A model generated the notes under the pieces. That model was not told the origin of the DNA. It was given only the letters and a program-made list of their open reading frames with translations, and made no database searches. From Escherichia phage myPSH2311: a stretch of DNA of 64,000 nucleotides. The stretch is from sequence record MG976803.1; one strand, written 5' to 3'. The translations under genes and the position numbers were made by a program. Below are positions 1-59,385 of this stretch, in pieces. Numbering within the stretch: the stretch's first letter is position 1; the number at the start of each line of letters is the position of its first letter.

Positions 1-584
1 ACCGTCGCTCTCTGCTTGATAACCGTCCCGGTGGAGTGGTTGAAATGGAACGTCAGGACGCTATTGACCTGTTCCCATACCATAACCTACCTCAAGGTAT
101 TGACGGCCTCCTAGGCATGTCTGAGGAGCTTAAAGAGACACGTACAGGTGTAACCAAACTAGGCATGGGTATCAACCCTGATGTGTTTAAGAATGATAAC
201 GCTTATGCAACTGTAGGCTTGATGATGAATGCTGCACAGAACCGTCTCCGTATGGTGTGTCGTAACATTGCTCACAACGGTATGGTTGAATTGATGCGTG
301 GTATTTACAACCTTATCAGAGAAAATGGTGAAGTCCCTATCGAGGTACAAACCCCTCGCGGTATGATTCAGGTAAATCCGAAACAATTACCAGCTCGTCA
401 CAATCTCCAAGTTGTTGTAGCTATCTCTCCTAATGAGAAAGCAGAACGTGCACAGAAACTGATTAGCTTGAAACAGCTGATTGCAGCAGATGCACAGTTA
501 GCACCTCTCTTTGGTTTGGAGCAAGACCGTTACATGACTGCACAGATCTTTGAGTTGATGGGTATTAAAGATACACATAAATAA
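1..584 (+). CDS. Portal (head-tail connector) protein, C-terminal part; reading frame is open to the window start
   Basis: Frame 0 has no stop from position 3; sits immediately upstream of scaffold-like and capsid genes; no motif-level confirmation. Confidence 0.4.
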   Translation, partial: RRSLLDNRPGGVVEMERQDAIDLFPYHNLPQGIDGLLGMSEELKETRTGVTKLGMGINPDVFKNDNAYATVGLMMNAAQNRLRMVCRNIAHNGMVELMRGIYNLIRENGEVPIEVQTPRGMIQVNPKQLPARHNLQVVVAISPNEKAERAQKLISLKQLIAADAQLAPLFGLEQDRYMTAQIFELMGIKDTHK

Positions 585-628
585 TTGCCGATTTTCAGGT
601 TGAGAACGTACAGGCTTCTTCTCAGAAG

Positions 629-1033: not shown

Positions 1034-1042
1034 GGACGTCGA

Positions 1043-2364: not shown

Positions 2365-2405
2365 TCGACAAATTAAATTATTAATAGTATAGGAGCTAAC
2401 ATAAC

Positions 2406-3353
2406 ATGGCTAATCCAACTTTATTTGTATCGTATGACCAGAATGGTAAAAAACTTTCTTTTGCTAACTGGATTTCTGTTCTGTCCCCTCAGGATACCCC
2501 GTTCGTATCTATGACCGGTAAAGAGTCTATCAACCAGACTATCTTTAGCTGGCAGACCGATGCACTGGCAAGCGTTGACAGTAATAACGCACACGTCGAA
2601 GGCTCTCGTGCTGAAGACGGCGAAATGAAACCGACTGTTATCAAATCTAACGTTAATGGTCCTTTGGACGTGGTAACTGATTGCAGTGTCAAGTCTTGGC
2701 ATATGTCCATGTCCATGGCATTAAGCTATAAAGGCGCTTAGACATGCGTATTGCGTCTGAATGACACCCATGCAGCTCGTAAGACTGGTGCATTCCAGTT
2801 CCTGTGTGCTCACGGTGGTCTGGCTGGTGGCGTTGTTGACAAGACCAAGAATGGTCCTGCTGACCCGGACACTGGTGCAGTAACTGTTAAAGTTGCACAG
2901 AATGCTTCTAACCCGACCACTAACATTGGTTTCGACGAAGCTGATATCTTTGATATGACTCTGCAACTGTATACCGCTGGTTCTGAAGCAGATATCATCA
3001 TGATTAACCCGGCTCATGCTAAGATCTTTGCTGGTCTGCAAGAAAATACTCAGGGTTCACGTAAGCGTATCTTTGAGAACACCAAGCAGTTCATCTACGA
3101 AGTTAACAGCATCACTGACCCGCTGGGCCAGAGCTACAAAATCATCGTTAACCGTTGGATGCCTACCGATGCAGTTTACTTCTTCCGTAGCGCTGACTGG
3201 ACCCAGATGGTTCTACGTGCTCCGAAACGTACTGAACTGGCTAAAGACGGTTCTTACGAGAAGTGGATGATTGAAATGGAAGTTGGTCTGCGTCACCGCA
3301 ACCCGTATGCTTCCGGCGTTCTGTTCACTGCTGCGGGAAAGGTGGCGGCGTAA
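2406..3353 (+). CDS. Major capsid protein, interrupted by an in-frame TAG at 2739-2741
   Basis: ORFs 2406-2741 and 2751-3353 are in the same frame separated only by TAG; strong optimal-codon bias; RBS-like AGGAG upstream of 2406; terminator downstream. Confidence 0.6.
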
Positions 3354-4742: not shown

Positions 4743-7733
4743 ATGATCGTTTATAACAACCAAGCACCTAAGAATGTTAACAATGTAGGACAATTTGGAG
4801 CTACTGAGGGAACTATTGGTGCTTATAAATCAGCAGCTGAATATGCAGCAGACTCTAAATATTGGGCATTGTTGTCCCAAACTAAATACTCCTCAGTAGA
4901 GGAGATTTTGGCTGAAGTAGAACGTCTGTATGCTCAAGGTCATCTACTGGAAGAAGACATTAAACAACTCAAGAGTGACTTTGAGTCACAAGAACAAGTG
5001 CTCTTAGGTTTGATTCAATCCACAGGAACTGCAATTGACAACACCAATGCAGCAACTGAGCTTTCAAAAGAGGCAACTCAAAACGTTCTAGCACAACTTG
5101 ACATTATCTCTAACATGACAGTTCAAACAACGCTTCTTCCTCCGGGAAGCCTAGCTACGGGGTCTTATGATAATGCAACAGGTGTCTTTGCTTTTGGTAT
5201 TCCAGAAGGTAAACCGGGGCGTGATGGTACTGACGGAACAATCGGTGATATTGGAAGCGTTCCTGTTGGTACCCCTGTTGTTGATGACTATGGTTTCTAT
5301 GTAGATAAAGATGATGGTGGTTTATACCGAGCTGACATGTCAGATATTGCCAACTTGATTCCATCTGTTCGATCTGTTTCAATCAATGGCGGCGCTGAAC
5401 AAACAGGTTCAGTGGTTTTTGATTCTGTCTCCACATTCAATGGACGTAAGGGTGCTGTAGTTCCTGCTACTGGAGACTACACAGCTGCTCAAGTGGGAGC
5501 TTTTAGTGTAACTAATAACCTATCCGAAATAACCGACACAAGTGCAGCTATTACAAATATTGGACTCGCTGAGCATGGGATTGGTAGCCCTACCTTAACC
5601 AAAGTGAAGGCTATGGACTGGCAAACATTTAATTTTGTCAATGGAGGTAACTATTCAGTATTAATGTCGAATATTACAAATGCCCCTGCTGAGATAAATT
5701 ATCCTGCCAATTATGGGTTATATCTTGAAGTCATTGGCGTAGTTACAGGAGGAGGTGAGGTACGAGTGGTGCCAATTGCATTGGGAATCCTCTCAATGGC
5801 ATATTTTCCGCTTGGCCAATGCGCTTATGCCGTGGCAAATGTGCCACAACTGCTGCATTGTGTGTAGCATCGCCAGCTTAGCGCTGCATCAATTGTACCT
5901 ATTACCAAAGGTGGTACAGGAGCTACTTCATCAGAGAATGCTCGACTAGCTCTAGTTGCAGCTAAGAGTGGTGATAACTCTGATATCACCTCGATGACCA
6001 ACAAGGTTACTTTCACACAATCTCCAGTAATTCCTGATGCTGTAGATGATAATGACGCGGTTGCTTTGAGACAGTTGCATACAAGTGAAGCAGATTTGCT
6101 GGCAAGGCTGAAAAGTAGTAATGCAGGTGAAGGTGCATCCCTTATTACCTTTGAAAATGGTAATTCTGTTGAGAGTCTTTCCAGTAAAGATGGGGCTAAA
6201 AACATTGGCAGTGGTGAGAGAAGTTTGCTTGTCCGTAACAACGACATTAAGCATTCAGGAGATTTCCCTACCTTACAAGCTGCGGTAAATGCATCGTTAC
6301 CAAAAAACGACTTAATTGTTTCCCCCGGTGAATACAGTGAAGCGATTACTATTGGTAGTACACAGTTAAAGGGTGTTGGTGGAGCCACGGTACTGAAAGC
6401 TCCGTCAAACTTTACAGACACTATTCAGGTTAAGGCATCTACGCCTCATTGGCAATTCCGCCATAGTGGTGGTTTTGCTATAGATGGTTCTGGGACAACC
6501 GGGGCTGTAGGTATTAGTTTTGACCCGACCGACCAATATGCTGGTCGTCACAACTTTAGTGACGTATACATCCATAACATTAACAAGGCCATTCAGAAAC
6601 CTTCCGGGAATATAGGTAATACATGGAAAGGCATTGGCGTGCAAGGTTGTGACTGGGGTTACTGGGCACAGTCTGCTTCTGAGATGCACTTAGGCTCTGA
6701 CACCCTTCAGAACATGCACTTTGATGGTATTAGCACTTACTGTGTTTACTTGAACGCTACAACAGGAGAAGCGCCTGGTACATTCGGAGGTGGTGTAGGC
6801 GGCTGGTGGATTAAAGATAGTATTATGGAAGCCTCTGGCGGTGGTGGTATTTACCTCAAGAACAAGGATGGTGACTGCCCTACTGCCCCATGTGGTGTAT
6901 CCAATGTATGGATGGAAGCTATCGCTACTACTCCAGCTATTAATGTAGATGGTGTATCTCAGAAGCCTCGTGTCCTTAAACTTATTGATACCAGTATCTT
7001 CTTTGCAGAGTACACATACCTTAATAACGTAGAGCTTCAGAACTCCAACCTTGTTACTTATGGCTGCCGAGTAGATAATTCAGATGGCCACATGGATATC
7101 TCTGTAGATGCCAACAGCAGTTTTGTGGCTGATCAATTGTACCTGAATGGTAGCTCCGGCAAAGATGTAATGGTACGTTCTGTAGCGGCTCAGACAGGCA
7201 AGATTGGGCAAAGCTGGTCACCTAATATGAGTATGCGTGGATACCTGCCGGAAGGATACATCTATCGTGTACCTGGTAATAAGCTGGTAGCTAAACCCTT
7301 CGATGGAGGTACTGCTGAATTTAGTGGTACGGCAAGCAGCACTGGGAGTTTGCAGCCACAAGGCCAGTTATCTCAGAGCTGCATGTACTTCGAAATCCCT
7401 GGTGCTGCTGAGTATGAGCTTACTGGTGCTGCATTTCAGATAACTTCCGGTAACTGGTATGTATGGGGCATTAGCACTGAACTGGTACAGGGAACCCCTA
7501 CAAACTTCCGCATCGGTGGAGATATCAATGTAGGTGAAGTATTTACTAAGGGGGGCCAGTGGGTGAGTACCTTTGGTGTAGCTCAGGCTAGTGCTTCCGG
7601 TTCAGTGAACCTGCGCCTAAGTACAGCCGGTACAGGCGGAGTAGTCCTACGCCTCGCTGATTACTTCGTAGCGGAGTTCACTACTCAGGCAGAGGCTATG
7701 CGCTTCGCTAATAGTAGACGTGCCCTGCGTTAA
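4743..7733 (+). CDS. Tail fibre/tailspike protein with in-frame TAG at 5865-5867; C-terminal part resembles a beta-helix depolymerase domain
   Basis: ORFs 4743-5867 and 5994-7733 share one frame; between TAG and first ATG there is no stop and no ATG/GTG/TTG, yet it encodes a tail-fibre-like PITKGGTGATSSENARLAL motif. Confidence 0.5.
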
Positions 7734-7757
7734 GAGTAATGACATTACTATAAGCAA

Positions 7758-7777
7758 AACCCCGCTTAGGCGGGGTT
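7758..7777 (+). terminator. Hairpin after tail fibre gene (weak terminator candidate)
   Basis: AACCCCGC-TTAG-GCGGGGTT stem-loop; no clean T-tract. Confidence 0.3.
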
Positions 7778-19112: not shown

Positions 19113-19460
19113 ATGGCTAACATTAAACCGTGGGAAGAAGCTTCCAAAGCTCCTGCGTATCTGAATGCCTCTCCGGAGCAACAAGCTCAAATGAGAGAAC
19201 AATATAAGGCAGCAGGTGGCTCTATTCCTGAGGAACAACCAGTAGCACAACCACAACAAGAAGAACGTGGTGCTATAGGTGAGTTTGCTCAAGGTGTGTC
19301 AAATGCTCTTCAATCTGGTGGTGCAAATATTGCAGCTAGTGCTGCTAAAGGTATTGGTGGTTTAGTTGAGATTGGTGAGAATCTAGCTGGAGCACAAACT
19401 AGTTATGGTAAGCGTATCCAAGAGAACTCTCAGAAAGTCAGTGTCATGAGTTGCTGGTGA
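19113..19460 (+). CDS. Small virion-associated protein
   Basis: ATG at 19113 preceded by AAAAGGAGA RBS (the longer ORF from 19068 lacks an RBS). Confidence 0.3.
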   Translation: MANIKPWEEASKAPAYLNASPEQQAQMREQYKAAGGSIPEEQPVAQPQQEERGAIGEFAQGVSNALQSGGANIAASAAKGIGGLVEIGENLAGAQTSYGKRIQENSQKVSVMSCW

Positions 19461-19467: not shown

Positions 19468-22260
19468 TTGACAGTTGCTAACCCATTGGCTGCTGCTGCT
19501 ATCATCGCAGGTCGTGAGACAGGTCGTGCATATGCAGACCAAACCCCTGAAGAGGGAGAAGATAAGTCTATTCTAGATGCAGCCTTAGTTGGTGGTGCTA
19601 ACTATGCGGCTCAGAGAATCCTTCCGGGTGCTGTCGGTACAGCTGAGTCCACACTTGGACGTATTGGTCAGAACGTTGCTAGTAACGCAGTGGCTGGTGC
19701 TAAAGGTGGCGCTCTTGTGGGTGCTGCTGAAGCTCAGAACAAGCATGGAGATGATACAACCTTTGCTAATGTATTAGAGGGTGCTATCGAAGAAGGTGCT
19801 ATGGGTGCTGCATTCGGTGGTGCAGTTGGTGGAGTTCATGGTTTGATTAGCCGTCCAGATTCTGCTGTCTTCAAGAATACTCCAGAGTATGCGAAGACTG
19901 ATATTGCTGCTGATGATGAACTAATTCGTAGTGCTAAGAATATTGATGAACTGAAAGAAGCTTACTCTAAAGCTGAAACTGCTAACGCTGCTTCTGCTCT
20001 GAATCTTCTGGATGAGAATGGATTCCGTATTACAGATGCTGTTGCTGTGGATTCTCCTGCTGCTCAGCGTATTCTTAATACTGACCAAGCTCGTGCTGAG
20101 AAAGCTGCTTCTGTTCAGAAAGAACATTCCAACATTCCGGGCCTTAATCCTTTAGCTTCTCCTGCTAAGACTCGTGGTAAAGCATTTGCTGATAATGAGC
20201 ACAACCAGAAGCAGGCTGTTGCTATGAAGGATGCAATGGCTGACTACACCAAAGACAACACGAAAGCTCTTACAGATGTTCTAGATAACCTAGACCGTGA
20301 ATTAACTTCTCTCCGAGCTTCTGGTGATTTTACTGGTAGTCCGATTGATATTAAGAATCGTACACAAGCTGACCGTGATTTCATTGATGCTTACAAGACT
20401 TTCTACAATGAAGCAAATCGATTCAAAGCTCGTGAAGGTGAAGATTTTAATAACTTTGTAGAGAAAGCTACTGAACTACAGAAGATGGCTGATAATGTTT
20501 CTCCAGAGATGAAGAAAGCTATCGGTGGGTTGAAGAAACTGAAAGGTATGCCTGAAGGTTTTAATCCTATTCAAGATGCTTATACTCTGAACAATACAGC
20601 TAAATTCATGAGCAACCAAGATCGTGGTTGGACTTCCTTGACTGATGATGGATTCCGTGAAGCTTCTTCACCTAGTCTGGTAATGAACACTCTTGGTGCT
20701 GCTAAGTATGCTCTGAATCGCTTCTCTTCTCAGCGTGCTCGTTCTCAACGTGTTAAGCAACAAGAATCTAACAGTGAAGCTATCCGCTCTCTTGCTCGTG
20801 GTGATTTGGAAGTTGCTCGTGCTAAATCTACTGCTGATGAAGCTCGTGCTAAGATGGAAGAAGAACCAGTTGTTGATGACATTAAATTTAAGACGCAAAA
20901 TGACGTAGAAACCGAACCGGTTCGGGAGCCTTCTTCTAGTACTGTGACGGAAGAAAATCTTCCTTCTTCTACTCCTCAAGAGACTCCTCTTACAGCTCGT
21001 GATTTAGTTGCGCAAAGACGCGCTATCCGTCAGGCTGAACAGCGTCGCGCTGAAGAAGAGGCATTGGCTGCTCAAGAAGCTCCGGTCGAACAGGCTCCAC
21101 AGGCTGAACCTCTCCCTGCTCGTAACCCTCTAGAGGAGCGTCGTGCAATGGAACAGCAACGTGCTCAAGAAGAGGCCGCACAGGCTCCAGAACCTACCGT
21201 AGAGGAACCAACAGTCAAAGCTGAGCCATTACCTGCCCGTGCTCCTAAAGCTCCTAAGGAAGCTGTACAGGACGTTAAACCGGCAAGTGGTGTAGAACGT
21301 TTAGCTGCTATGTCTAGTGCTGCTCGTCAGGCTACTAAAGATCGTGCAGAACGCTTTGCTCGTTCTCTGTACTCTAAGGCTGCTAAAGCTAAAGCTACTG
21401 CTGAAAACTTCTTGGCTTATAAAGGTGATCCTAAGGAACTGATGCGTCGTATTCGTCAGGAAGATAATGCTATCAACACTGAACGTCATGAAGAAATGGC
21501 TCGTAACCAGAGTTGCATGTCCGAAGCGGTTATCGAGGAACGTGGTCTGCCAGAAGACATTGCTACTAAGGCATTACGTGCTGAAGAGAAAGGTTTAGGT
21601 GGGAACGTAACTAACTTGGATAGTCTGAAACGTCGTGCTGAAAGGTTGTATCAGAAGCAGCGTGAAGATGAGTTTGATAGACTGTACCAACAAGCTCTAG
21701 AAGAGAATAAAGCTTTCGATAACAAGAATGCTCCTAAGCTGGTTGACCAGAAGAAAGAGCTTCAGTCTGAGATTGATACTTTGATTGATGCAGAACCTTT
21801 ACGTCCTGCTCAGAAAGACGCTATGCGTAAATTGATGAATGACTTTGTAGATGGAAAGTTTAAATCTTCAGAGAAGGCTGGTAGGGAAGAGGCTTTGGAA
21901 GTTGGTCAGATGAAGGATATTTGGGATGGGTTTATTAACACCTATAACAGAGAAGTGAATGCCTTCAACAAAGCTAACAAGAACTCTCAGTACGAAGCTG
22001 CTGCTAAGCATTTACAGGCTCGTGAAGAACGTCTTGCTACACTCAGGAAAAAGGCTCAGGCTCGTTCGGATGCTAAAGCTGCTGTTGAGAATGAACGTAA
22101 AACTCTAGAGGCTATTGCAGCTCAGAAGAGTGAGATTGAGAAGATGATGGAAGGTTTACCTAAACCTGTTCGTGAGGCTCAGGAATCTCGTACACTGAAA
22201 CAGTTGGCTGCTCACCACGATAAGAACTCTCCAGTTCCTCCAGAGAAGTTCCGTAGTTAA
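19468..22260 (+). CDS. Large A/E/K-rich internal virion/ejection protein (TTG start)
   Basis: 930 aa; internal AEPLPAR repeats; TTG at 19468 is the first start codon in frame after an upstream stop. Confidence 0.35.
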   Translation: MTVANPLAAAAIIAGRETGRAYADQTPEEGEDKSILDAALVGGANYAAQRILPGAVGTAESTLGRIGQNVASNAVAGAKGGALVGAAEAQNKHGDDTTFANVLEGAIEEGAMGAAFGGAVGGVHGLISRPDSAVFKNTPEYAKTDIAADDELIRSAKNIDELKEAYSKAETANAASALNLLDENGFRITDAVAVDSPAAQRILNTDQARAEKAASVQKEHSNIPGLNPLASPAKTRGKAFADNEHNQKQAVAMKDAMADYTKDNTKALTDVLDNLDRELTSLRASGDFTGSPIDIKNRTQADRDFIDAYKTFYNEANRFKAREGEDFNNFVEKATELQKMADNVSPEMKKAIGGLKKLKGMPEGFNPIQDAYTLNNTAKFMSNQDRGWTSLTDDGFREASSPSLVMNTLGAAKYALNRFSSQRARSQRVKQQESNSEAIRSLARGDLEVARAKSTADEARAKMEEEPVVDDIKFKTQNDVETEPVREPSSSTVTEENLPSSTPQETPLTARDLVAQRRAIRQAEQRRAEEEALAAQEAPVEQAPQAEPLPARNPLEERRAMEQQRAQEEAAQAPEPTVEEPTVKAEPLPARAPKAPKEAVQDVKPASGVERLAAMSSAARQATKDRAERFARSLYSKAAKAKATAENFLAYKGDPKELMRRIRQEDNAINTERHEEMARNQSCMSEAVIEERGLPEDIATKALRAEEKGLGGNVTNLDSLKRRAERLYQKQREDEFDRLYQQALEENKAFDNKNAPKLVDQKKELQSEIDTLIDAEPLRPAQKDAMRKLMNDFVDGKFKSSEKAGREEALEVGQMKDIWDGFINTYNREVNAFNKANKNSQYEAAAKHLQAREERLATLRKKAQARSDAKAAVENERKTLEAIAAQKSEIEKMMEGLPKPVREAQESRTLKQLAAHHDKNSPVPPEKFRS

Positions 22261-22427
22261 TTGCAAGCCTTTTAAGGCGCGCTGAAGCGGCTTTAAATGG
22301 CGCTAAATCGTGCAAAATGCCCATTGGGAGCCTGAATGGCGCGTGTTTTGCATAAGCCGGCGTTTGCCCAGTTCGTAAGGCTGGTATTTTGCTGTAAAGC
22401 GTGATTCATCGCCGCCTGATGCGTACT

Positions 22428-23535
22428 ATGGAAGATAAGGGCATATCTAGAGAGGATGCTGAAGCATTTGCTGGTTCCTATATGGATAACCGTTATGCAC
22501 TTCTTGAGAAGCCTATGACTCCTACTGAACATCAGAATGCTCGTTCTCGTATCGAAGCTGATGTTGAGAAGTTTGCTAAGAAGTACGAATCAATGACTCC
22601 TATCGAGAAAGAGATTGTTAAGGTTACTGGAGATACTGAAGGTAAGCTTGATAACTTGGATGCGGATACTAGGAAGGCTATTGAGGAGGCTCAGAAGGTT
22701 GACTCTGATATTAAGAAACTGCAAGAGGAAGAGTTGGAGATGGAGAAGATTCGTTCTGCTCTGCCTGATGATGAAAGATCTCAAGCAAATTCTGATATCT
22801 TGGAAAGCATTAAACAACAGGAAGAGGTCTTTGCTGATAAAGTAGAGAAAGCTTTCTTGAGTGGGAAGAGCTTGGATGAGTTGGCTAGTGTGGCTGAAGT
22901 TTTAGACAGGGTTCATGGTGCAGATAAGGCTGGTAACAACCGTCGCTTTGTACGTGCATTGCAGACTGCTGCTGAAAACAAGAAGAAGTATGGTGATAAT
23001 CCAGTAGCTTGGTTTAGTGCTGATGATTACTCTGCCATTGCTAAACTTGGTGCTTCTTCCGCAGGTGGTAACAAATCCAGAGCACTGGAGAAGATCTTTG
23101 GTTCTACAGCTGAACAGGCTAAGAGTAAGTTGCTTGGTAGGGATGATGTAGCGAAGATGAGACGTGTGATTGAAGAGAACCCTGATATCAAGATTCCTTC
23201 TTACAAGACAGGTCAGGTTTCCAGTCCCAGTCAATGGGCATGCATGGTCCAAAATCGGCCCCTAGGGTAACGTCGGAATCCGGTACGCTTATGCCCCTAA
23301 GTGCATTTTTTTGCTTGGTAGGGATGATGTAGCGAAGATGAGACGTGTGATTGAAGAGAACCCTGATATCAAGATTCCTTCTTACAAGACAACAAATCGT
23401 ACTGAGTACTTGCAGTTCTTGGAGAAGTTTAATGACGAAGGGAAGCCTAAGATTAAACGTGGCTCATTGTCAGAGAAGCTTGAACGCAGTAAGCGTCAAT
23501 CGAGACTCCGTGTAAGAGTTCGACCTAAGGAGTGA
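22428..23535 (+). CDS. Hypothetical late protein, reading frame broken by a 100-bp insert plus 81-bp duplication (23211-23391)
   Basis: ORF 22401-23270 ends inside the GC-rich insert; ORF 23311-23535 restarts with a duplicated LGRDDVAKMRRVIEENPDIKIPSYKT segment. Confidence 0.35.
23211..23310. other. GC-rich insert flanked by 81-bp perfect direct repeats (23130-23210 and 23311-23391)
   Basis: Direct comparison of the two repeat copies; insert has different composition from flanks. Confidence 0.6.
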
Positions 23536-23812
23536 TAAAAGAAAAGCCCAGGGCTCGTTCAAGTCAAATGATGGGCTAGTCAATTAAGCCCCTTGGGCAT
23601 AGCTGGCAATGCTAGTCACAACTTCTTCATTCATATACCCTCCTAGATTGTGTTTATAAAATTAGTAAGTTTCTCTTCACTTTCATCAAAAGCTTTTCCA
23701 GCTGCTTCCATCTCCCAAGTATCGGCATTGTCAATAAAGCTCTGAGCTTCTAATAGGTCGTGGATTAAGTCGAAGAGTTTATTTTTATCTGCTTGTGTGA
23801 TCATGTCAGTTC

Positions 23813-24079
23813 CTAGATTAAATCGTAATACTGAATAATGTCAGAGAGTTTGAACTCTCGAATCTCATCTTTCTCTACATCTATCGCTGTCATAATCCAA
23901 CAAGGTTTGCCACCGTTATGAAAACGGGAGCTAGCAACGGAGGTTCGGAGTGGAATAACGGACCGGTCAGCAACCTCGCCTCTCCAATTGCGATAGCGAA
24001 AGCGAAGCACTTGTTGCGTAGATTTTTGATCATCACTCATTTCCTTTTTTGAATTGTTTTCTTGCATCATTATTGGCAA
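23813..24079 (-). CDS. Hypothetical protein
   Basis: 88-aa ORF at the distal end of the minus-strand module. Confidence 0.3.
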   Translation of the reverse strand: MPIMMQENNSKKEMSDDQKSTQQVLRFRYRNWRGEVADRSVIPLRTSVASSRFHNGGKPCWIMTAIDVEKDEIREFKLSDIIQYYDLI

Positions 24080-24366
24080 TGCTTAACGTAACTAGCTTGG
24101 GCTTCATGGTCAAGAGGAACTATAGGCTCTATGTGGTCAATAGCCATATCCTTTACAGGGTGGTCAGAACCACACATGGCACACTTAAAGTGCATTGCCA
24201 GTCTACCTGTCTTTGGATTAATCTTCTGCTCTGTCTTGGCGTCTGCTAGTGCATCGAACATGGGCTTCCACTTTCTAGTCAGAGAACGAATCCCTGACTT
24301 GATAAAAGAATTGTAACGAGCTTCAGTCCACATTCCAGAGCATCTAGTCTTCTCAGCCTTCGCCAT
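24070..24366 (-). CDS. HNH endonuclease
   Basis: CAMCGSDHPVKDMAIDHIEPIVPLDH: Cys pair plus DH...N/H pattern typical of HNH nucleases. Confidence 0.5.
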   Translation of the reverse strand: MAKAEKTRCSGMWTEARYNSFIKSGIRSLTRKWKPMFDALADAKTEQKINPKTGRLAMHFKCAMCGSDHPVKDMAIDHIEPIVPLDHEAQASYVKHCQ

Positions 24367-24739
24367 AACCTACACTCATATCATCTTCTTCCCATACACG
24401 TTTATCTACTCGGTGTGATACTTTTTCACGTTTTTCTTTAATATAGCGGTTGCCTAATTCGTGGCTATATTTAATACGCTGCTCTTTACGAGATTCACGG
24501 TTGGAGGAGTTTTCATCATATGAACGATAATCAAATTTACCCATTATAATATCCTTATTACCAAGATTTATCTAACCATGTCCAGTCGAACAGGTCTTCC
24601 GGAGTCTGACCAACAAAGAGCAGCCGAGCATTCTCAAGCATCTTCTCTTCATCTTCAGTATCGAACTTCTTATAATATTCCATTCGTACTATATGATACA
24701 TGGTCCAAGCCTGCATTGAACCGTAAAGCCCTTAGGCTG

Positions 24740-25366
24740 TTAGTTACCACCCCACATAACCTCTTTACGTTCCCCACATCCGGGGATGTTATCCGTACCA
24801 TCTCCAATCAACATTTGATAGAAGAAGTTTTGCCATGAAACTAAATCAGATACGTAATGAGGAGGGACTTCTTTCTGTCTTTCTCCACAAGCCCAGCGAT
24901 AATGCCATCCGGGAGTTATCAACAAATCCTTGTCTCTAGTACAGATGATAGTATTCTTATCCCTACGTTGCCTTTCAGCTAGTGCATCATCAGCCTCTCT
25001 CCCAAAGACCTCAATGTATTCGTACTTGGCTTTAATGTAATCACCAACGTTTTGCCAGTGAAAAGGTCTTTCTCCGGGAGGTCTGTTTGCCTTGTAGTCT
25101 TGTTGCTTAGCAACATCGAAACGGAAGTTACCGCCTTCGCTGAAGTAGAATACAACCTTACTACAACCCGAGCGAGCTATAATTGTATCAATCTTGTACT
25201 GAAGTCGTTCAATCATGAAATTGTAATCAACTGGAACACGTCCTGTGTCAAGGAAGGGATGCTCCTGAGTAAGAGCACCCACTTCATACCGAAGAACGTC
25301 AGCGTCCACTATAGCAACTTCAGGGAGCTTAACTTCTTCCATAAATATCATCCTGAGCTTGAGCAA
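24740..25366 (-). CDS. 5'-3' exonuclease/flap endonuclease family protein (N-terminal nuclease domain)
   Basis: FGREADDALA motif (EADD acidic cluster typical of FEN/5'-exo family). Confidence 0.45.
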   Translation of the reverse strand: MLKLRMIFMEEVKLPEVAIVDADVLRYEVGALTQEHPFLDTGRVPVDYNFMIERLQYKIDTIIARSGCSKVVFYFSEGGNFRFDVAKQQDYKANRPPGERPFHWQNVGDYIKAKYEYIEVFGREADDALAERQRRDKNTIICTRDKDLLITPGWHYRWACGERQKEVPPHYVSDLVSWQNFFYQMLIGDGTDNIPGCGERKEVMWGGN

Positions 25367-26228: not shown

Positions 26229-27470
<1,242 letters not shown>

Positions 27471-35144: not shown

Positions 35145-36128
35145 TTATGAGCTTAAAGCTCCTTTGCGTGCTCCAGCTGCTTTTCCAGCTCGATCACCAC
35201 TTTTGCCGCCGTTTGAACGGTTTGAGCTGACTGATTCAACACGTAAGTTGCTTGACGCATTAGAGCCTCCAGACTTGACAGCTCGTTTGTGTCCAACGTC
35301 TTTACCTCTGACAGCAGCTTTTCCATCGCGCTTTTCAACGATGCGACGTGCACGGTGGCGCTGAGCATCTCCGCTCTTGCTCCCAATTCCCGTTTCACCG
35401 CGCTTGATCGCAGTCCTTCTTTCTTGTGCATAATCTCTCTTTCCTACATGATCTGCCATTAGATTTCTCCTGTTGGGCAATGACGTTAAACGCCCGTTGT
35501 GGCCCAAAATTGGCGCCCAAAATTGGGGCTTAATGCGTGCGTAATTTTTGGGCCAAATTAAGGCCGTATATAATAACAGCTGAGAGGTTTCTCCCAATCG
35601 AGTCATGATTGAGAAGGCTTCATCTTTAGTGGTGTTCTGGAACTCATCAACAATAACAATAGCATCATTGAAAGAACGACCACGGAGATATTCCAGAGGT
35701 ACAAACTCAATGTTACCATTTCCGATTTGGCATTCATAGAATCCCTTACCATATCGCTGAGTAATAACATCAATGATAGGCATCAGGTAAGGTTCAAACT
35801 TCTCACGCATTCCTCCCGGAAGTAACCCAAGAGAGTTGCCCATGCCGACAGAAGGGCGACTCAGAATGATCTTCTGAATCTTACCGCTCTTCAGTGCATC
35901 AATAACTGTGGAAGTGATTACAAAGGTCTTACCACAGCCCGCAGGAGCGTCTGTGAACACAACTTGTTTAGTCTTAATAGCATTGAGTAGCTCAGACTGA
36001 AACTGGTTCTGAGGGACTACAGGCTTTGCTAAAACCACCTCTTCATACTCTCGCTTACCTTTACGAGTAACAAGTGCTTCCCGACGAAGGTCTTTCCGTG
36101 ATTCTTTCCGTGATTGACGACGACTCAT
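35145..36128 (-). CDS. phoH: PhoH-like ATPase, reading frame runs through a GC-rich insert after the DEFQN motif
   Basis: Walker A APAGCGKT; DEFQNTT...TRLG; downstream translation (LLLYTALIWPKNYARIKPQFW...) is insert-encoded. Confidence 0.5.
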   Translation of the reverse strand: MSRRQSRKESRKDLRREALVTRKGKREYEEVVLAKPVVPQNQFQSELLNAIKTKQVVFTDAPAGCGKTFVITSTVIDALKSGKIQKIILSRPSVGMGNSLGLLPGGMREKFEPYLMPIIDVITQRYGKGFYECQIGNGNIEFVPLEYLRGRSFNDAIVIVDEFQNTTKDEAFSIMTRLGETSQLLLYTALIWPKNYARIKPQFWAPILGHNGRLTSLPNRRNLMADHVGKRDYAQERRTAIKRGETGIGSKSGDAQRHRARRIVEKRDGKAAVRGKDVGHKRAVKSGGSNASSNLRVESVSSNRSNGGKSGDRAGKAAGARKGALSS

Positions 36129-37038: not shown

Positions 37039-37383
37039 TTAACTCTCCAAAGTTTTCTTCAGAGCTGCCCATGAGATTGGGTAGAGCTTAGCCATCTCTT
37101 CATCTACGGATTTAGCAAACACTCGAACTTCATATTGAGCGTGAGATGAGAGTCGCTGACGACACAACTCAAACCAGCCATACAAAGAACCAGTCCACAC
37201 CCACTCAGTGATCATCCCCTGAGGAAGAACAAATCGAGCTTGCTCTGGTGCAATAAATTCAATCAACTTGTCATATGTTGCTAGAGAAGCTTCATATGCA
37301 TCGTTAATCAACATTAATGCTTCAGCTCGTTCTCCGTCGATGAGTTGAATCCCTGAACCTGCATGGTTTGCCCAAAATGGCAT
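37039..37383 (-). CDS. thyX: ThyX, C-terminal half
   Basis: PEQARFVLPQGMITEWVWTGSLYGWFELCRQRLSSHAQYEVR matches ThyX C-terminal helical region. Confidence 0.55.
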   Translation of the reverse strand: MPFWANHAGSGIQLIDGERAEALMLINDAYEASLATYDKLIEFIAPEQARFVLPQGMITEWVWTGSLYGWFELCRQRLSSHAQYEVRVFAKSVDEEMAKLYPISWAALKKTLES

Positions 37384-37451
37384 TGGCGCTATAGCATGGG
37401 GCTTTTTAAATGGCCCCGCGGGTTAATGCTAATGGCGGATTTTGGCCACGG
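37384..37451. other. GC-rich insert splitting thyX into two ORFs in different frames
   Basis: 68 bp between the two ThyX ORFs; composition unlike flanking coding sequence. Confidence 0.55.
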
Positions 37452-37757
37452 TTATGCATGCGTAGGGAGTTCAACTGCTCCATCTTTATACCGCCGGGAC
37501 ATTTCGTTCCACGAGAATCCAACCTGATGCTTGCCCAGCTGTCTCGCAATTGCGATAGGTGCTTTGCATCGGAAACTGACTTGCGGGTGTCGGAATGGAG
37601 TACAGTGTTTTTCCCGTGCAAGGAAGTTGATAAGTTTTGTGTCTCTCTCATTTAAGTCACCTTCTCGAACAACACCGAAAGATACTCTAGCTGCATTGAC
37701 TACAGATTTGTCACTACCCATTGCTTCAATCAGTGTTGCTTGTAGTTGTTCGTTCAA
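37452..37757 (-). CDS. thyX: Flavin-dependent thymidylate synthase ThyX, N-terminal half (gene split)
   Basis: AARVSF...TPFRHPQVSFRCKAPIAIARQ...S(11)...SRRY ThyX-like pattern; ends shortly after SRRY. Confidence 0.55.
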   Translation of the reverse strand: MNEQLQATLIEAMGSDKSVVNAARVSFGVVREGDLNERDTKLINFLAREKHCTPFRHPQVSFRCKAPIAIARQLGKHQVGFSWNEMSRRYKDGAVELPTHA

Positions 37758-39322: not shown

Positions 39323-40135
39323 TATTATCCATTACCTGCTGGGTAATTACGATGCAGTTTAGGCATGGTAATGCGTTTAGGCGTCTTGGGGAGGTGCCCC
39401 CAGTTGCAAGCTGATGCTGCGGGTAAATTGGCGCCATGGGAAACGCGTTAATGCGTGCCTGATGTTATCTTTTCTCATGTGTTGCTCAAGATCCCAAACA
39501 ACATGAATAGCCCACATCTTTTTCATTAGTAATGTACCTTTCCGCTGATATAAACACGACCAGAAGAATACTCCTTGGCCTTATGGATGCTGATACTATT
39601 AACCACGTCACCAGTAAGCATAGTCTTTTTAAAATCTCGAGCTTGTTGACGAGTAGGGAGTGCAGTCATAGTCATACCACCTGATGCCCACTTAATCTTC
39701 GCTAACCAGAATTTTCTCATAGTGATTGGTCTCATTAGTAATAAACCTTACTGTTGACACAAAAAGCACCTTCACTATTCACGATAGCTTTTCCTAATGT
39801 AACCTTGTTAAGTCTAAAAGTAGACTTGTATTGGTTTTTGACCCTACGTGCGTGCTCTCGAGTATTAACAAAATCTACAGCTACTAACTCTCCAGTCGTG
39901 TTATCATGTACACGAACAATCCACTTTTTCATTTTACTAAACCCTTCATGTAGTCATAAAGATCATTAGAAGCTTTACCCCATTCAAGGTGCTTCTTATC
40001 CATATAACGCTTACAGACTTCTTTATTACCTTCATCACAAGTATCAAATCGATGACATGCCCGACCAAATACCATTGCTTTTAACTGAGCATCAGTAGTT
40101 AAATATTTAAGTTCTTGAAACTCTTCTTTATTCAT

Positions 40136-40696: not shown

Positions 40697-40861
40697 TTAA
40701 GCGTGCATATTTTGGCTAATTTTTGGCGTAAAAGTTTTCGCCCAGTGCCTGATTGAACCGGGTCGTAATTATTGCCCGGGTAGTGTTTAAAATGGCGAGG
40801 AATTAACAGCTGAGTGTGGTGCATCAATAACACCATCATCAATTAATTTATGTAACTCTGG
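40697..40861. other. Insert upstream of dcd carrying a diverged duplicate of the dcd start region
   Basis: 45-bp near-identical repeat (40652-40696 vs 40862-40906, 2 mismatches) including RBS and ATG; copy at 40818-40908 encodes MSLLGSPELHKLIDDGVIDAPHSAVN vs MSLLGSVELHDVIDNGYLDAEHKYVN. Confidence 0.55.
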
Positions 40862-41266: not shown

Positions 41267-41322
41267 CCCTTCAATTGCAAATTGGCGCCCAATTTGGCAA
41301 TGATTTGCCCCGTTTGTTAAGC

Positions 41323-42183
41323 CTATGCAAATGTGCGCTTTGGCGATTGGGCCAAATTGGCCTGAAGACTAGACATAATCTGAATCTCTTCATAAGGGAT
41401 TCCAAAGAATCGACTCATGTCTCGGTTAACACAATATAGAGCACTTGTTGTATCTTCAATAAGAGAAACCTGACCTAATCCATTGACTAGATGACTAACT
41501 GGCTGAGGTGTGGGAAGATATCGAGTTTGGGCCATGTATTGATGCGCAACTGCTGGAGAGGAAAATCTCAACACTTGTGAGTTAGGCCACTTCTTGTGAA
41601 CATACCTGATTTCACGACTAGAGACAACCACTGGACAAGGGGAAGTCATAGCCAAATATCCGTGAGAAGTCATGAATAAGTTGTCAAGAGTCATCGCACC
41701 ACGGCACATCATAGGAAAATTATCCAATACCTCTTCAATAGAAGTAGGATAATTAAACATGAATTGGATACGAACCCCATTCCACTGAAACTCAATAATA
41801 TCAGTGAATGTTAATTGAGAACCCCCAGCATAGGATTCGTTTGTAGCTTCAGCAAGAAGTGATGCATATTCAATATCTTGTGACTCTAGCCATTCCTTCA
41901 CATTACTTTCAATCTCCCGTCCAAGCTCTTGCCAACGATCAGTTGGGATGAAAGTGTTTTGAGTTCTTGGTGTTTGTCCTCTGACAATAAAGATATCAAT
42001 GTCATGTGGAGCTATGTTATTAAGGACAGCATCACGAACAGCCCCACCAGTAATGATGGGACAGATACCATCTGGAATCAAGTTGTTGTTAATCAACTGT
42101 TCAATGAAGTGACGACCAACAGTGATATCAGGTTGTTGAGCAACCTTATCTTCAATTTGGTTAATCGGGATAACAATCATTTT
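41323..42183 (-). CDS. Pol-beta superfamily nucleotidyltransferase (CCA-adding/poly(A)-polymerase-like), N-terminal part
   Basis: GICPIITGGAVRDAVLNNIAPHDIDIF matches GG.VRD...D.D NTase signature; C-terminal 16 residues are insert-encoded. Confidence 0.5.
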   Translation of the reverse strand, partial: KMIVIPINQIEDKVAQQPDITVGRHFIEQLINNNLIPDGICPIITGGAVRDAVLNNIAPHDIDIFIVRGQTPRTQNTFIPTDRWQELGREIESNVKEWLESQDIEYASLLAEATNESYAGGSQLTFTDIIEFQWNGVRIQFMFNYPTSIEEVLDNFPMMCRGAMTLDNLFMTSHGYLAMTSPCPVVVSSREIRYVHKKWPNSQVLRFSSPAVAHQYMAQTRYLPTPQPVSHLVNGLGQVSLIEDTTSALYCVNRDMSRFFGIPYEEIQIMSSLQANLAQSPKRTFA

Positions 42184-44073: not shown

Positions 44074-44240
44074 ACCAAAATTGCGTGACGTTGGCTAATT
44101 GCTGACGTGGAATGGCCCTGGCAATTGGGATGCCCCGTGTTAGCTGCGATTTGGCGCGTTATTGGCCCCGTGTTTGCAAGTAATGCGCGGGCTTTATGCC
44201 GTTAATGCTGGGTTTATGCGTGCATATTGCTGTGCCAATG
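44074..44240. other. GC-rich insert between primase zinc-ribbon and Toprim coding regions
   Basis: Zinc-ribbon ORF runs into this segment and stops; Toprim ORF begins just after it; composition unlike flanks. Confidence 0.55.
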
Positions 44241-44412
44241 CGTAATGGGTAGTGCCCTTTTCGAACACTTCGTAATTCCCACAACGGTTACAACTCCCCC
44301 ACTCCTCACCAGTCTCTTCGTTACGGAAGAGAATCATGTGGTTGTGGGTTTTATCACGACCATGAGAGATACATTCCTTACAACCTGTGTCTCCCAAAAT
44401 GATCTTTGACAT
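44194..44412 (-). CDS. Primase zinc-binding domain (N-terminal fragment of primase)
   Basis: CKEC...CNRC Cys4 zinc-ribbon; last ~17 residues are insert-encoded. Confidence 0.5.
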   Translation of the reverse strand: MSKIILGDTGCKECISHGRDKTHNHMILFRNEETGEEWGSCNRCGNYEVFEKGTTHYALAQQYARINPALTA

Positions 44413-44590: not shown

Positions 44591-45214
44591 TTAAATACTT
44601 GGCTTCAAGTCTCCGAAGAGCCATGTGGCAATTTTATCTTGTTCTTCGTCGATATGATAAATCCAAGCGATAACAGTTTCACCTGAGTCCATCTTAACAG
44701 CAATCTGAGTACGCTGATAGAAGCTGTCTTCAGGGCTACGTTTGTTGTAACCTTCCAGACGGTCATACGGACCTTCCAGACCTGCTTTGTCAGTAGCAAA
44801 CACTTCTACACGAACAGGCTTGTTGTTATTGCTGTGTGCGAGAGAGATGCTCGGGAAGTAGGAACCACCGTAACGGAACAGATCAAAGTTGTCTAATGGG
44901 CCGTTTTATGCGGTTTAAAGGCCTTGACCAGTGCATTTGCCCGTTAAATGGCGTGGGGATTTCCCAGTGCGGGTGGCCAGTAAACGTGTTTTGTCTTTGT
45001 CAGTAGCAAACACTTCTACACGAACAGGCTTGTTGTTATTGCTGTGTGCGAGAGAGATGCTCGGGAAGTAGGAACCACCGTAACGGAACAGATCAAAGTT
45101 GTCTTCAGTCCAACCTTCACCAATTGACTTAGCACCAGCTCGGTCATTAACTAAATAGTTAGCTTGACCACGACGAAGAGAACCATAAGTTGCTACGTAA
45201 ATTACTTCTGACAT
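44591..45214 (-). CDS. Gamma-glutamyl cyclotransferase (AIG2/GGCT)-like protein, interrupted by 100-bp insert with 110-bp flanking direct repeats
   Basis: N-terminus MSEVIYVATYGSLRRGQAN resembles YGSL...G GGCT signature; ORFs 44915-45214 and 44591-44803 join if 44895-45104 is removed. Confidence 0.45.
44895..44994. other. GC-rich insert flanked by 110-bp perfect direct repeats (44785-44894 and 44995-45104)
   Basis: Exact repeat verified by reading both copies. Confidence 0.6.
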
Positions 45215-45478: not shown

Positions 45479-46880
45479 TTACTCTGTAATAAAGATTTTG
45501 ATTACACCACAGATTGCTGCACTCTCAAATACTGCAACAGCTTCACTCCCCTGAAAGAAGGCCACTTTGCCGTCAGAGAAGTTAAACATGTCAGCATCTA
45601 GGTCCATAGCTCGCATATCACCAGCGTCGTTAGTATCTTTAAACAGAACTTTATACTTATTCACAGATAGGTCACTCCTTTGTCTTGTTGTGCTTCAGAG
45701 ATGATACGTTCTACACATTCCATAGAATACTTATCACCACGTTTCAGGAAAGTCACAATTGCAGAGAATTGATTACCAATCATTCGCTGATTAGTAATAC
45801 CCCACTCCTCACACAACTTACGCAACTCTTTACGAGAGCCTACAATCAGAGGCTCTTTTTGTTCCATCATTCCATTTTGTACTAGATCTTCCAATGAAAA
45901 CATATCCATATATCCTTAGTAGTTTACAACAGTGCCATCGTTCAGGGTAAGGCTATTAATCTGCAACACACGACCAAGCTGACGATCACTAATTGGTGCG
46001 TTCCATCCAGAGCGGTAGAAGTTACGACCACAGAAGAACAAGATCACATTACTTGCTACAGTCGAACCGTTTTCAGGATGCTTGATGTTAGCGATATAAT
46101 AACCACGACGCAGATTACGACGGGTTACAGGGTTGATCTCTAACCCTTGCTCTTCAACTTGCATTGTTTCAGGAACAGGTTCCGAAGATTCTTCAGCAAC
46201 TGGCTCGGAGCTTTCCACTGACAGTGCGTAATCCTCATCACCTGCTGGTGAAAATGTTTCTTCCACTTCTTCAACAGGAAGTTCGTATGCAACACGATAG
46301 TCAGGCTCAACACCAGAGAAGCTCTTAACAAACTCAACAATATTGTGAGTATAGGTTTCCAGAGTTGTTCCAGTCAGTCCCGGAGCTGTGTTAACTTCCA
46401 GAACCCAAGCGTTAGTATTTTTACTAATCAGGTCAACAGCACCAAAGTTCAAACCCAGAGCAGATACAGCTTTGTGAGCTTGAATCAAAACCTGATCAGG
46501 AGGCGCATCTTGGAAGTTTGAGGAATAAACCCAACCAGTGTGATGATTTCGAACGTCTTCACGATAGGAAGGATCTTCACGGTAACCATTACGACGAATC
46601 TTCTTCTGAACGTAAGTGATAACACCTTCGAATACATGAACACGCCATTCACGATTGGTGAACGATAAGGGAAAGGTCCTTGGCCATAGCGTGGCGTATG
46701 CATGCATGCATGCATAAATTGCGTGTTTTGGGCGCGGTGAACGACTGTTAAAGTGTTAGCTTGACCACGACGAAGAGAACCATAAGTTGCTACGTAAATT
46801 ACTTCTGACATTATCTATACCTTTGTTGGTTTGTTTAGTTTATCCGAACTAGCCTCCTCTTTCGAAGAGGCTAAAGCAGA
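45479..46880 (-). repeat. Tandem repeat unit 3: truncated ATP-grasp copy (45916-46707), 82-aa ORF (45661-45909), 61-aa ORF (45479-45664), plus GC-rich junction and GGCT-start fragment
   Basis: Near-identical to units at 46881-48246 and 48247-49904; truncated copy begins exactly at codons REWRVHV. Confidence 0.7.
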
Positions 46881-48677: not shown

Positions 48678-48683
48678 ATATCC

Positions 48684-49904: not shown

Positions 49905-50353
49905 AGGTAACCTACGCCTATATGTACGTGACCACAGTCAGTACGAAGTCCCTTGTTCTGAGAAGTGGGGGACGGATTTTTCTGACCAGTGAAAGCGTTG
50001 AAGTCAGGAGTACATCCAAAGATGAACGCTGATTCATTAAAGGTCTTCATTTCTTCTTCGGTGAAGATGTGAGAGCTAACACCCGGAGCTGTTTCCATGT
50101 CCAGTTTGTTCAGGACATTATTGGTAAGATCGATACCACGTTGCATGTTATCGTTAAACGCTTCAAAACCGCTCTGTGGGTCGATATCAAACTCAGCCAG
50201 TACGTTGTCCTCTTGAAGACGAACATCTTTAGCCAGAGTGATCTTATCGTCCTTAGAACAGCCTAATAGACCAGCTACAGAGGTGATGATACCATTACTG
50301 GTACGAACGAACATTTCAGGGTCAGAGCCGATAAGGAATTTGCGCTTAGTCAT
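49865..50353 (-). CDS. Hypothetical protein (possible ligase-associated)
   Basis: 162-aa ORF overlapping neighbours; no confident motif. Confidence 0.3.
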   Translation of the reverse strand: MTKRKFLIGSDPEMFVRTSNGIITSVAGLLGCSKDDKITLAKDVRLQEDNVLAEFDIDPQSGFEAFNDNMQRGIDLTNNVLNKLDMETAPGVSSHIFTEEEMKTFNESAFIFGCTPDFNAFTGQKNPSPTSQNKGLRTDCGHVHIGVGYLCHHTSHYALRLT

Positions 50354-59268: not shown

Positions 59269-59385
59269 AATCTTATTCCTTTCAGTGATAAGTTATATCG
59301 GGCAAGCCCATCAAGGCGATAGGCTTGAACAAATAACTTAATCAAGTAAACTAAACGATTTCCAACTCTTTTTTACGGTGCCCGA

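What the first reader, a model, noticed from the sequence alone, without database searches (positions are those of the whole stretch)
2736..2780. In-frame TAG inside the major capsid gene
ORFs 2406-2741 and 2751-3353 are in the same frame and separated only by TAG at 2739-2741 (…ALSYKGA*TCVLRLNDTHAARKTG…). Both halves have strong expression-type codon bias. Every other plus-strand ORF stop I checked is TAA (two TGA). A possible hairpin starts at the TAG (AGACATGCGTATTGCGTCT), and GCT precedes the TAG and recurs in frame at 2775. Candidates are an amber mutation propagated on a suppressor host, programmed readthrough or recoding, a short bypass, or a sequencing error.
Basis: seen in the sequence. 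Interest (0 to 1): 0.75.

Follow-up and report, generated by a model that had tools for sequence, protein, structure and literature searches.

The report
Assembly-gap filler, not an amber codon
The stop codon inside the capsid gene sits in a 99-base stretch of non-biological filler that papers over an assembly gap in a poorly finished public phage genome, so it says nothing about how the phage makes its capsid.

Summary
The TAG at 2739-2741 is really in the sequence, and the two ORFs share a frame. But it is not a stop codon in an otherwise intact gene. The window is Escherichia phage myPSH2311 (GenBank MG976803), a phiEco32-like Kuravirus whose "complete genome" was built by ordering short-read contigs on a reference. 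In its capsid gene, window 2656-2754 (99 nt) replaces 210 nt (codons 84-153) that all 30 listed close relatives carry, while both flanks are about 99-100% identical to them. The 99 nt match nothing in phage, plasmid, E. coli, viral-contig or metagenome collections. They show no residual similarity to the replaced segment and are a compositional outlier.

The block is one of about 27 in the window, and six of them are exactly 100 nt. They sit where collinearity with phage ES17 breaks through deletions, overlaps and a triplicated 1.3-kb region. They also break the portal, tail-fibre and other genes. One deposited protein (AVP40183.1) ends in 36 filler-encoded residues, so the filler is in the public record.

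A stop in 33 junk codons is expected (P = 0.81). The proposed hairpin is no better than shuffles, the GCT repeat is trivial, and the window has no tRNA. The verdict is an artefact. The gene's real, already published recoding site is the GGGAAAG -1 frameshift at 3335-3341.

The parts
2406..2655 (+). Genuine 5' part of the major capsid protein gene (codons 1-83 plus one base)
   Evidence: Nearly identical to phiEco32 gp11 and Bas90, with 1-2 differences. Window 596-2655 is 98.3% identical to ES17 5829-7879.
2656..2754 (.). 99-nt non-homologous filler block replacing 210 nt (codons 84-153) of the capsid gene. It contains the finding.
   Evidence: Alignment with relatives. No match in phages, E. 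coli genomes, plasmids (one chance hit at E = 0.08), viral contigs or metagenome contigs. Alignment score to the replaced segment equals the shuffle mean. Order-3 Markov likelihood z = -2.57, the 0.9th percentile of genuine 100-nt windows.
2739..2741 (+). The in-frame TAG, a chance stop inside the filler
   Evidence: Expected 1.6 stops per 33 filler codons.
2755..3353 (+). Genuine 3' part of the capsid gene (codons 154-353). The depositors annotated only 2955-3353 as a 132-aa 'major head protein' (AVP40105.1).
   Evidence: 99.8% identical to ES17 8090 onward. Exact protein look-up.
584..595 (.). 12-nt filler replacing 76 nt of the portal gene, which shifts the frame
   Evidence: The portal gene is annotated only as a 134-aa fragment, AVP40102.1.
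5775..5883 (.). 109-nt filler replacing 184 nt of the tail fibre gene. ORF 4743-5867 ends at a TAG inside it.
19436..19449 (.). 14-nt filler replacing 67 nt
21511..21535 (.). 25-nt filler replacing 70 nt
22264..22403 (.). 140-nt filler replacing 221 nt of the TolA-like gene
23211..23310 (.). Exactly 100-nt filler between contigs whose ES17 coordinates overlap by about 80 nt
   Evidence: ES17 28799, then 28719. Markov z = -4.35.
23550..23617 (.). 68-nt filler
24072..24099 (.). 28-nt filler replacing 96 nt
24708..24743 (.). 36-nt filler replacing 70 nt
26403..26428 (.). 26-nt filler replacing 68 nt
35473..35574 (.). About 100-nt filler at an ES17 jump of about 1 kb
   Evidence: Markov z = -5.31.
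37367..37466 (.). Exactly 100-nt filler
39360..39459 (.). Exactly 100-nt filler
40697..40796 (.). Exactly 100-nt filler between overlapping contigs
41280..41362 (.). 83-nt filler
44080..44245 (.). 166-nt filler
44895..44994 (.). Exactly 100-nt filler between overlapping contigs
46655..46748 (.). About 100-nt filler (contains GCATGCATGCATGCATGCAT) between copies 1 and 2 of a triplicated region
48049..48147 (.). About 100-nt filler between copies 2 and 3 of the triplicated region
49815..49911 (.). About 100-nt filler at a 4.7-kb ES17 jump
54071..54128 (.). 58-nt filler
55837..55936 (.). Exactly 100-nt filler at a 1.8-kb ES17 jump
59374..59502 (.). About 129-nt filler
60654..60752 (.). About 100-nt filler. 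It encodes the last 36 residues of deposited protein AVP40183.1 (PSH2311_086).

Best explanation
The window is part of GenBank MG976803, Escherichia phage myPSH2311, a phiEco32-like Kuravirus. That record is not a finished genome. It is a pseudomolecule made by assembling Illumina reads de novo and then ordering the phage contigs on a reference genome with CONTIGuator2. The capsid gene falls across two contigs, and the 210 nt between them (codons 84-153) were never assembled. Where a scaffolder would put a run of Ns, the record holds 99-100 arbitrary letters (2656-2754). By chance, with a probability of 1 in 3, the length difference of 111 nt keeps the reading frame. As expected for 33 random codons, one of them is a stop, TAG. 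The ribosome never sees this sequence. The real phage almost certainly encodes the ordinary uninterrupted 353-codon HK97-fold capsid protein.

Shown here:
- the identity of the record;
- the replacement of 210 conserved nt by 99 orphan nt;
- the genome-wide family of such blocks at collinearity breaks;
- the presence of filler in the deposited record.

Inferred:
- that the blocks stand for N spacers;
- that the letters were typed or generated rather than sequenced.
For: 1. All 30 listed close relatives, out of 122 matching phage records, align to 2300-3500 in two pieces. Each covers 92% of the query and spans 1311-1312 nt against the query's 1201.
2. The base-level alignment shows that 2656-2754 replaces gene nt 251-460, with nearly identical flanks.
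3. The block has no match in phages, E. coli genomes, plasmids, viral contigs or metagenome contigs. It has no residual similarity to the replaced segment. The missing 210 nt are nowhere else in the window.
4. BLAST of the whole window against ES17 shows about 25 breaks in collinearity. At the breaks sit blocks of about 100 nt, six of them exactly 100 nt. The reference coordinates jump forward, jump backward (overlapping contig ends), or repeat a 1.3-kb region three times at 93.6, 91.8 and 99.8% identity. Smaller blocks of 12-36 nt replace 67-96 nt.
5. Nineteen blocks joined together find nothing in 50,697 phage records.
6. Most blocks fall below the first percentile of an order-3 Markov model of the phage's own sequence. 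They are 3-5 fold enriched in ATGC, GCAT, TGCG, GCGT and TGGC even against their own base composition, for example GCATGCATGCATGCATGCAT.
7. Exact protein look-ups identify the record through AVP40102.1, AVP40104.1, AVP40105.1, AVP40107.1 and AVP40183.1, all from myPSH2311 on a 68,712-bp contig. AVP40183.1 matches a natural 299-aa homologue at 99% over residues 1-160. It then carries 36 unrelated residues that start exactly at the filler boundary.
8. The paper describes CLC de novo scaffolds, 'reference-based assembly via CONTIGuator2' and an 'arranged complete genome' (PMC6437105). CONTIGuator fills gaps between contigs with Ns (PMC3133546).
9. The solved SU10 capsid protein (7Z45) is a contiguous 352-residue HK97-fold chain about 99% identical to phiEco32 gp11.
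10. The window has no tRNA and the hairpin is not significant.
Against: I could not read MG976803 itself, because it is not in the phage collection. The presence of this particular block in the deposited record is therefore inferred, from the record's truncated 132-aa 'major head protein' annotation and from the proven presence of a sister block. How N runs would have become letters is unknown. Block lengths do not equal the reference gap sizes. The capsid block is among the less extreme compositional outliers (z = -2.57). The raw reads were not available to map.
Confidence: 0.94

Rival explanations
1. A genuine amber (TAG) mutation in the capsid gene of a phage propagated on a suppressor host.
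For: TAG is in frame and unusual for plus-strand genes of this phage group (0 of 18 in ES17).
Against: An amber mutation changes one sense codon of a homologous gene. Here the TAG lies inside 99 nt with no similarity to the gene, and 70 conserved codons are missing. Suppression would still give a protein lacking residues 84-153 of the HK97 fold. No suppressor tRNA is present. The phage was isolated on clinical E. coli (PMC6437105).
Confidence: 0.01
2. Programmed recoding: either stop-codon readthrough, or a T4 gene 60-like bypass from GCT 2736-2738 to GCT 2775-2777 over a 39-nt gap.
For: A matched GCT take-off and landing pair, with a stop codon immediately after the take-off codon.
Against: GCT is the commonest codon, so a second one within 12 codons has P = 0.55. 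No stable stem-loop forms. No relative has the arrangement. The bypass product would still contain 28 junk residues and lack 70 conserved ones. The same kind of block breaks many other genes, with frameshifts.
Confidence: 0.005
3. A real biological replacement or deletion: a defective or mosaic capsid gene in which foreign DNA replaced 210 nt.
For: The flanks are clean and the frame is kept. The sample seems to hold more than one genotype.
Against: The block has no source in any collection searched. Its composition is unlike phage or E. coli DNA. Some 27 blocks of the same style sit at assembly junctions, six of them exactly 100 nt long. A plaque-forming phage with visible virions needs a working capsid protein (PMC6437105).
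Confidence: 0.03
4. The filler was added after deposition, for example when Ns were replaced while this window was prepared, and is not in the public record.
For: MG976803 could not be read directly. The 111-aa ORF ending at the TAG is not an annotated protein.
Against: Deposited protein AVP40183.1 ends in 36 residues encoded by the sister block 60654-60752. At least that filler is therefore in GenBank, and all blocks share one style. Either way the TAG remains an artefact.
Confidence: 0.02

Closest known systems
Inter-contig gap spacers of reference-ordered pseudomolecules (ABACAS/CONTIGuator N runs; the conventional 100-N gap of unknown length)
   Same: The blocks sit exactly at contig junctions. 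Many are exactly 100 nt. The flanking reference coordinates are deleted, overlapping or duplicated. The published pipeline used CONTIGuator2, which fills gaps with Ns.
   Different: The spacer is written in A, C, G and T rather than N, so it reads as sequence and creates fake ORF ends. That 100 is the default spacer for overlapping contigs comes from my own knowledge and was not verified here.
Escherichia phage myPSH1131 record MG983840 (same laboratory and pipeline)
   Same: It shares many segments at 100% identity, has the same contig end inside the capsid gene (window 2764 against 2755), and also lacks the 210-nt capsid segment. It has duplicated regions and fragmentary gene annotation.
   Different: At several junctions it carries natural-looking sequence where the window has filler. 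It lacks the scaffolding gene and the capsid gene's 5' part altogether.
Translational bypass in phage T4 gene 60
   Same: Matched codons flank a short gap, and a stop codon follows the take-off codon.
   Different: There is no stable take-off stem-loop, no conservation, and no restoration of a collinear protein. The resemblance is explained by codon frequency.
Programmed -1 frameshift of Kuravirus capsid genes at GGGAAAG
   Same: It is in the same gene. It is the real, published recoding event, and it is present in the window at 3335-3341, leading into the Ig-like ORF 3365-3877.
   Different: It lies about 600 nt downstream of the finding and is unrelated to the TAG.
Classical amber mutants of phage head genes (for example T4 gene 23 am, lambda Eam)
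   Same: An in-frame TAG in a major capsid gene.
   Different: Those are single-base changes in an otherwise collinear gene. Here the codon lies in non-homologous filler.

Membership tests
Assembly-gap filler in a scaffolded pseudomolecule | The block coincides with a break in collinearity to close relatives, with near-identical flanks | tested here: met
   Window 2655 corresponds to ES17 7879 and window 2755 to ES17 8090. The flanks are 98.3% and 99.8% identical. See also the alignment.
Assembly-gap filler in a scaffolded pseudomolecule | The same kind of block recurs at other junctions with a stereotyped length | tested here: met
   About 27 blocks. Six are exactly 100 nt and six more are 94-102 nt. 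They lie at forward jumps, backward jumps and duplications.
Assembly-gap filler in a scaffolded pseudomolecule | The block content is not biological sequence: no homologue anywhere and aberrant composition | tested here: met
   No matches. Markov outliers. 4-mer enrichment beyond every one of 1000 shuffles for ATGC, GCAT, TGCG, GCGT, TGGC and AATG.
Assembly-gap filler in a scaffolded pseudomolecule | The record was produced by contig ordering rather than finished sequencing | tested here: met
   Source identified as myPSH2311, MG976803. Methods: CLC scaffolds plus CONTIGuator2 (PMC6437105). CONTIGuator fills gaps with Ns (PMC3133546).
Assembly-gap filler in a scaffolded pseudomolecule | No reads support the block | not testable with these tools
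   Raw reads are not available here.
Amber mutation with suppressor host | TAG replaces a sense codon of an otherwise collinear gene by a point change | tested here: not met
   The TAG lies in a 99-nt non-homologous block, and 70 codons are missing.
Amber mutation with suppressor host | A suppressor tRNA(CUA) is available from phage or host | tested here: not met
   ARAGORN finds no tRNA in the 64-kb window. The host genotype is not testable.
T4 gene 60-type translational bypass | Matched take-off and landing codons, with a stop codon after the take-off codon | tested here: met
   GCT 2736-2738, TAG 2739-2741 and GCT 2775-2777. However, P = 0.55 by codon frequency.
T4 gene 60-type translational bypass | A stable stem-loop at the take-off site | tested here: not met
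   z = -0.70 against shuffles, and the proposed hairpin is absent from the minimum-energy fold.
T4 gene 60-type translational bypass | The bypass restores a protein collinear with its homologues | tested here: not met
   The product would keep 28 unrelated residues and lack residues 84-153.
Programmed stop-codon readthrough | The stop and its context are conserved in related genomes | tested here: not met
   None of the 122 related records contains the block.

The most novel reading that the evidence does not exclude
The 99-nt block is real DNA in the myPSH2311 stock: a capsid gene in which 70 core codons were replaced by 33 orphan codons including an amber. It would be maintained either as a defective genome complemented by a co-infecting close relative (the assembly does hint at several genotypes) or read through by an unknown mechanism.
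Probability: 0.02. Interest if true: 0.55.

Novelty: not a real feature. Interest (0 to 1): 0.04.

Why it matters
Biologically it does not matter. No recoding, suppression or bypass is taking place at this TAG.

Practically it is a useful warning. A public record labelled 'complete genome' (MG976803, with similar problems in its sister MG983840) contains about 2 kb of non-biological letters in about 27 blocks. It also has duplicated contigs and broken portal, capsid, tail-fibre and replication genes. Because the filler is written in A, C, G and T rather than N, it generates false ORF ends, false orphan peptides (for example the last 36 residues of AVP40183.1, now in nr and UniRef) and false 'recoding' signals. 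Any other finding in this window that touches one of the listed blocks should be treated as an artefact.

Tried and rejected
1. I searched for the block's origin with blastn against phages, E. coli genomes and plasmids. I also ran exact 30-mer scans of viral and metagenome contigs and searched within the window. Nothing turned up.
2. An exact look-up of the 111-aa ORF as a called gene or protein found nothing on record. The depositors annotated only a 132-aa C-terminal fragment.
3. I tried to fetch MG976803 directly, but it is not in the phage collection.
4. I tested whether the missing 210 nt had been placed elsewhere in the window or in myPSH1131. It had not.
5. I considered bypass, readthrough and amber suppression, and rejected each on the tests listed above.
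6. I considered uniformly random replacement of Ns. The blocks are not independent random draws: specific 4-mers are 3-5 fold over-represented relative to the blocks' own composition. The letters therefore look typed or generated, but their provenance cannot be established here.

Full report
**Observation.** The sequence reads ...AAA GGC GCT TAG ACA TGC GTA TTG CGT CTG AAT GAC ACC CAT GCA GCT CGT..., with TAG at 2739-2741. ORFs 2406-2741 (111 aa) and 2751-3353 (200 aa) share a frame. The literal observation is therefore correct.

**What the gene should look like.** The region is the major capsid (head) protein gene of a phiEco32-like podophage (Kuravirus). A megablast of 2300-3500 finds 122 phage records. 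All 30 listed records align in two pieces covering 92% of the query, at 98.6-99.5% identity. Each spans 1311-1312 nt in the record against 1201 nt in the query.

Alignment with phiEco32 gp11 and Bas90 shows the cause. Window 2656-2754 (99 nt) stands where the relatives have 210 nt: gene nt 251-460, codons 84-153, [70 protein letters not shown]. The flanks are essentially identical.

The close homologue from phage SU10 has a solved structure (7Z45), a contiguous 352-residue chain with an HK97 fold (PMC9509320). From the standard HK97 topology, the missing stretch would include the end of the extended loop and the long spine helix. This is inference from the sequence pattern, not a test made here.

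**The block is an orphan.** It has no blastn match in 50,697 phage records or in 5,426 E. coli genomes. The 72,556 plasmids give only one chance hit, at E = 0.08. Exact 30-mers are absent from the IMG/VR viral contigs and from the JGI metagenome contigs. The block occurs only once in the window. Its alignment score against the segment it replaces equals the mean of shuffles (6.5 against 6.5 ± 2.4). The missing 210 nt are not elsewhere in the window.

**It is one of many such blocks.** BLAST of the whole window against the closest complete genome, ES17, breaks into 26 pieces.

- Between the pieces lie unmatched blocks, strikingly often about 100 nt long. Six are exactly 100 nt: 23211-23310, 37367-37466, 39360-39459, 40697-40796, 44895-44994 and 55837-55936. 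Six more, including the capsid block, are 94-102 nt.
- Across these blocks the ES17 coordinates jump forward (deletions) or backward by 80-110 nt (overlapping contig ends).
- In one case the coordinates repeat. ES17 52052-53751 is present three times in tandem, at 93.6, 91.8 and 99.8% identity.
- A k-mer scan and a comparison with myPSH1131 reveal further small blocks of 12-36 nt that replace 67-96 nt of real sequence.
- The blocks break the portal gene (12 nt for 76 nt, a frameshift), the tail fibre gene (its ORF ends at a TAG inside 5775-5883), the TolA-like gene and others.
- Nineteen blocks joined together (1,943 nt) find nothing among phages at E ≤ 0.01.

**The blocks are not natural-looking DNA.** Their G+C content is about 0.5, against 0.425 for the window. 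Under an order-3 Markov model trained on the rest of the window, most fall below the first percentile of genuine 100-nt windows. Their z-scores reach -5.3, and the capsid block scores -2.57. ATGC, GCAT, TGCG, GCGT, TGGC and AATG occur 3-5 times more often than in 1000 shuffles of the blocks themselves, beyond every shuffle. Motifs such as GCATGCATGCATGCATGCAT, GGCCCAAAATTGGCGCCCAAAATTGGGG and GTCGTAGTCGTA recur. The letters look typed or generated rather than sequenced. That is an inference.

**Source of the window.** Exact protein look-ups identify five window ORFs as deposited proteins of Escherichia phage myPSH2311, on a 68,712-bp contig (MG976803):

- AVP40102.1, a 134-aa 'portal protein' fragment;
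- AVP40104.1, the scaffolding protein;
- AVP40105.1, a 132-aa 'major head protein' equal to window 2955-3353;
- AVP40107.1;
- AVP40183.1.

AVP40183.1 is 99% identical to a natural 299-aa homologue over residues 1-160. It then carries 36 unrelated residues beginning exactly at the boundary of block 60654-60752. So filler of this kind is in the public record.

The paper states that reads were assembled de novo with CLC into a 5.9-Mb assembly. [quoted passage not shown] CONTIGuator fills gaps between contigs with Ns (PMC3133546). The sister record myPSH1131 came from the same pipeline (PMC6200275). It shares many segments at 100% identity, has a contig end at almost the same place in the capsid gene, also lacks the 210 nt, and has its own duplications.

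- With the filler's base composition, 33 codons are expected to hold 1.6 stops, and P(at least one) is 0.81.
- Keeping the frame (210 - 99 = 111) is a 1-in-3 event.
- GCT is the commonest codon of the gene (23 of 353), so a second GCT within 12 codons has P = 0.55.
- The region 2730-2785 folds no better than shuffles (z = -0.70), and the proposed hairpin is not in the minimum-energy structure. One of its arms is filler and the other is phage sequence.
- No tRNA is found in the window.
- The rarity of TAG among plus-strand stops is real (0 of 18 in ES17). It simply reflects that this TAG is not a gene end.

**Conclusion.** The in-frame TAG is a chance codon inside non-biological filler that covers an unassembled 210-nt stretch of the capsid gene, in a reference-ordered draft deposited as a complete genome. 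Amber suppression, readthrough and bypass are each contradicted by a tested defining feature.

The one genuine recoding signal of this gene is the published -1 frameshift heptamer GGGAAAG (PMC9965538). It is present at 3335-3341, with the -1 frame open into the Ig-like ORF 3365-3877.

The finding is not a real feature and its interest is very low. Its value is as a flag on the quality of this record and on any other finding in this window that overlaps the listed blocks.

Noticed in passing
window 3335-3341 and 3365-3877: The slippery heptamer G GGA AAG lies in the correct phase, 10 nt before the capsid gene's TAA. The -1 frame is open from there into the Ig-like domain ORF (GKGGGVTVDSVTVSP...). 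This is the known Kuravirus capsid -1 frameshift that yields an extended capsid-Ig isoform (PMC9965538). It is the real recoding event of this gene.
   Followed up: partly
window 45435-46654, 46749-48051, 48148-49814: The same 1.3-1.7-kb region (ES17 52052-53751) is present three times in tandem at 93.6, 91.8 and 99.8% identity, separated by filler. Contigs of two or three different Kuravirus genotypes appear to have been concatenated, which suggests a mixed lysate or cross-sample contigs.
   Followed up: partly
window 584-595: The portal gene is broken here. 12 filler bases replace 76 nt of ES17, which shifts the frame. The record annotates only a 134-aa 'portal protein' fragment (AVP40102.1, window 629-1033).
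   Followed up: partly
window 5775-5883: The tail fibre ORF 4743-5867 ends at a second artefactual TAG (5865-5867) inside a 109-nt filler block that replaces 184 nt. The last 31 residues or so of that ORF are filler-encoded.
   Followed up: partly
window 60646-61233 (- strand): Deposited protein AVP40183.1 (PSH2311_086, also UniRef100_A0A2P1MX77) carries 36 C-terminal residues encoded by filler, whereas the natural homologue is 299 aa. Artefactual peptide sequence has therefore propagated into protein databases.
   Followed up: yes
whole window; MG983840 (L005, L006): The sister record myPSH1131 shares many segments at 100% identity with the window but joins them differently. It carries several kb of internal duplications and lacks the scaffolding gene and the 5' part of the capsid gene. 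The two 'different' phages may derive from overlapping contig sets.
   Followed up: partly
whole window: No tRNA gene was found in the window. The comparative table in PMC9965538 lists 0 tRNAs for myPSH2311 and myPSH1131 but 1 for the other Kuravirus-like phages shown in the retrieved excerpt. The tRNA was probably lost in an assembly gap or lies in the 4.7 kb outside the window.
   Followed up: no
filler blocks 2656-49911 versus 54071-60752: The filler's style drifts along the genome. Early blocks are rich in AATGGC, GGCCC, AAATT and TTTTGG, while late blocks are rich in GTCGTAGTCG, TTTGTC and CGTACGT. This fits hand-typed or separately generated text rather than one random generator.
   Followed up: no
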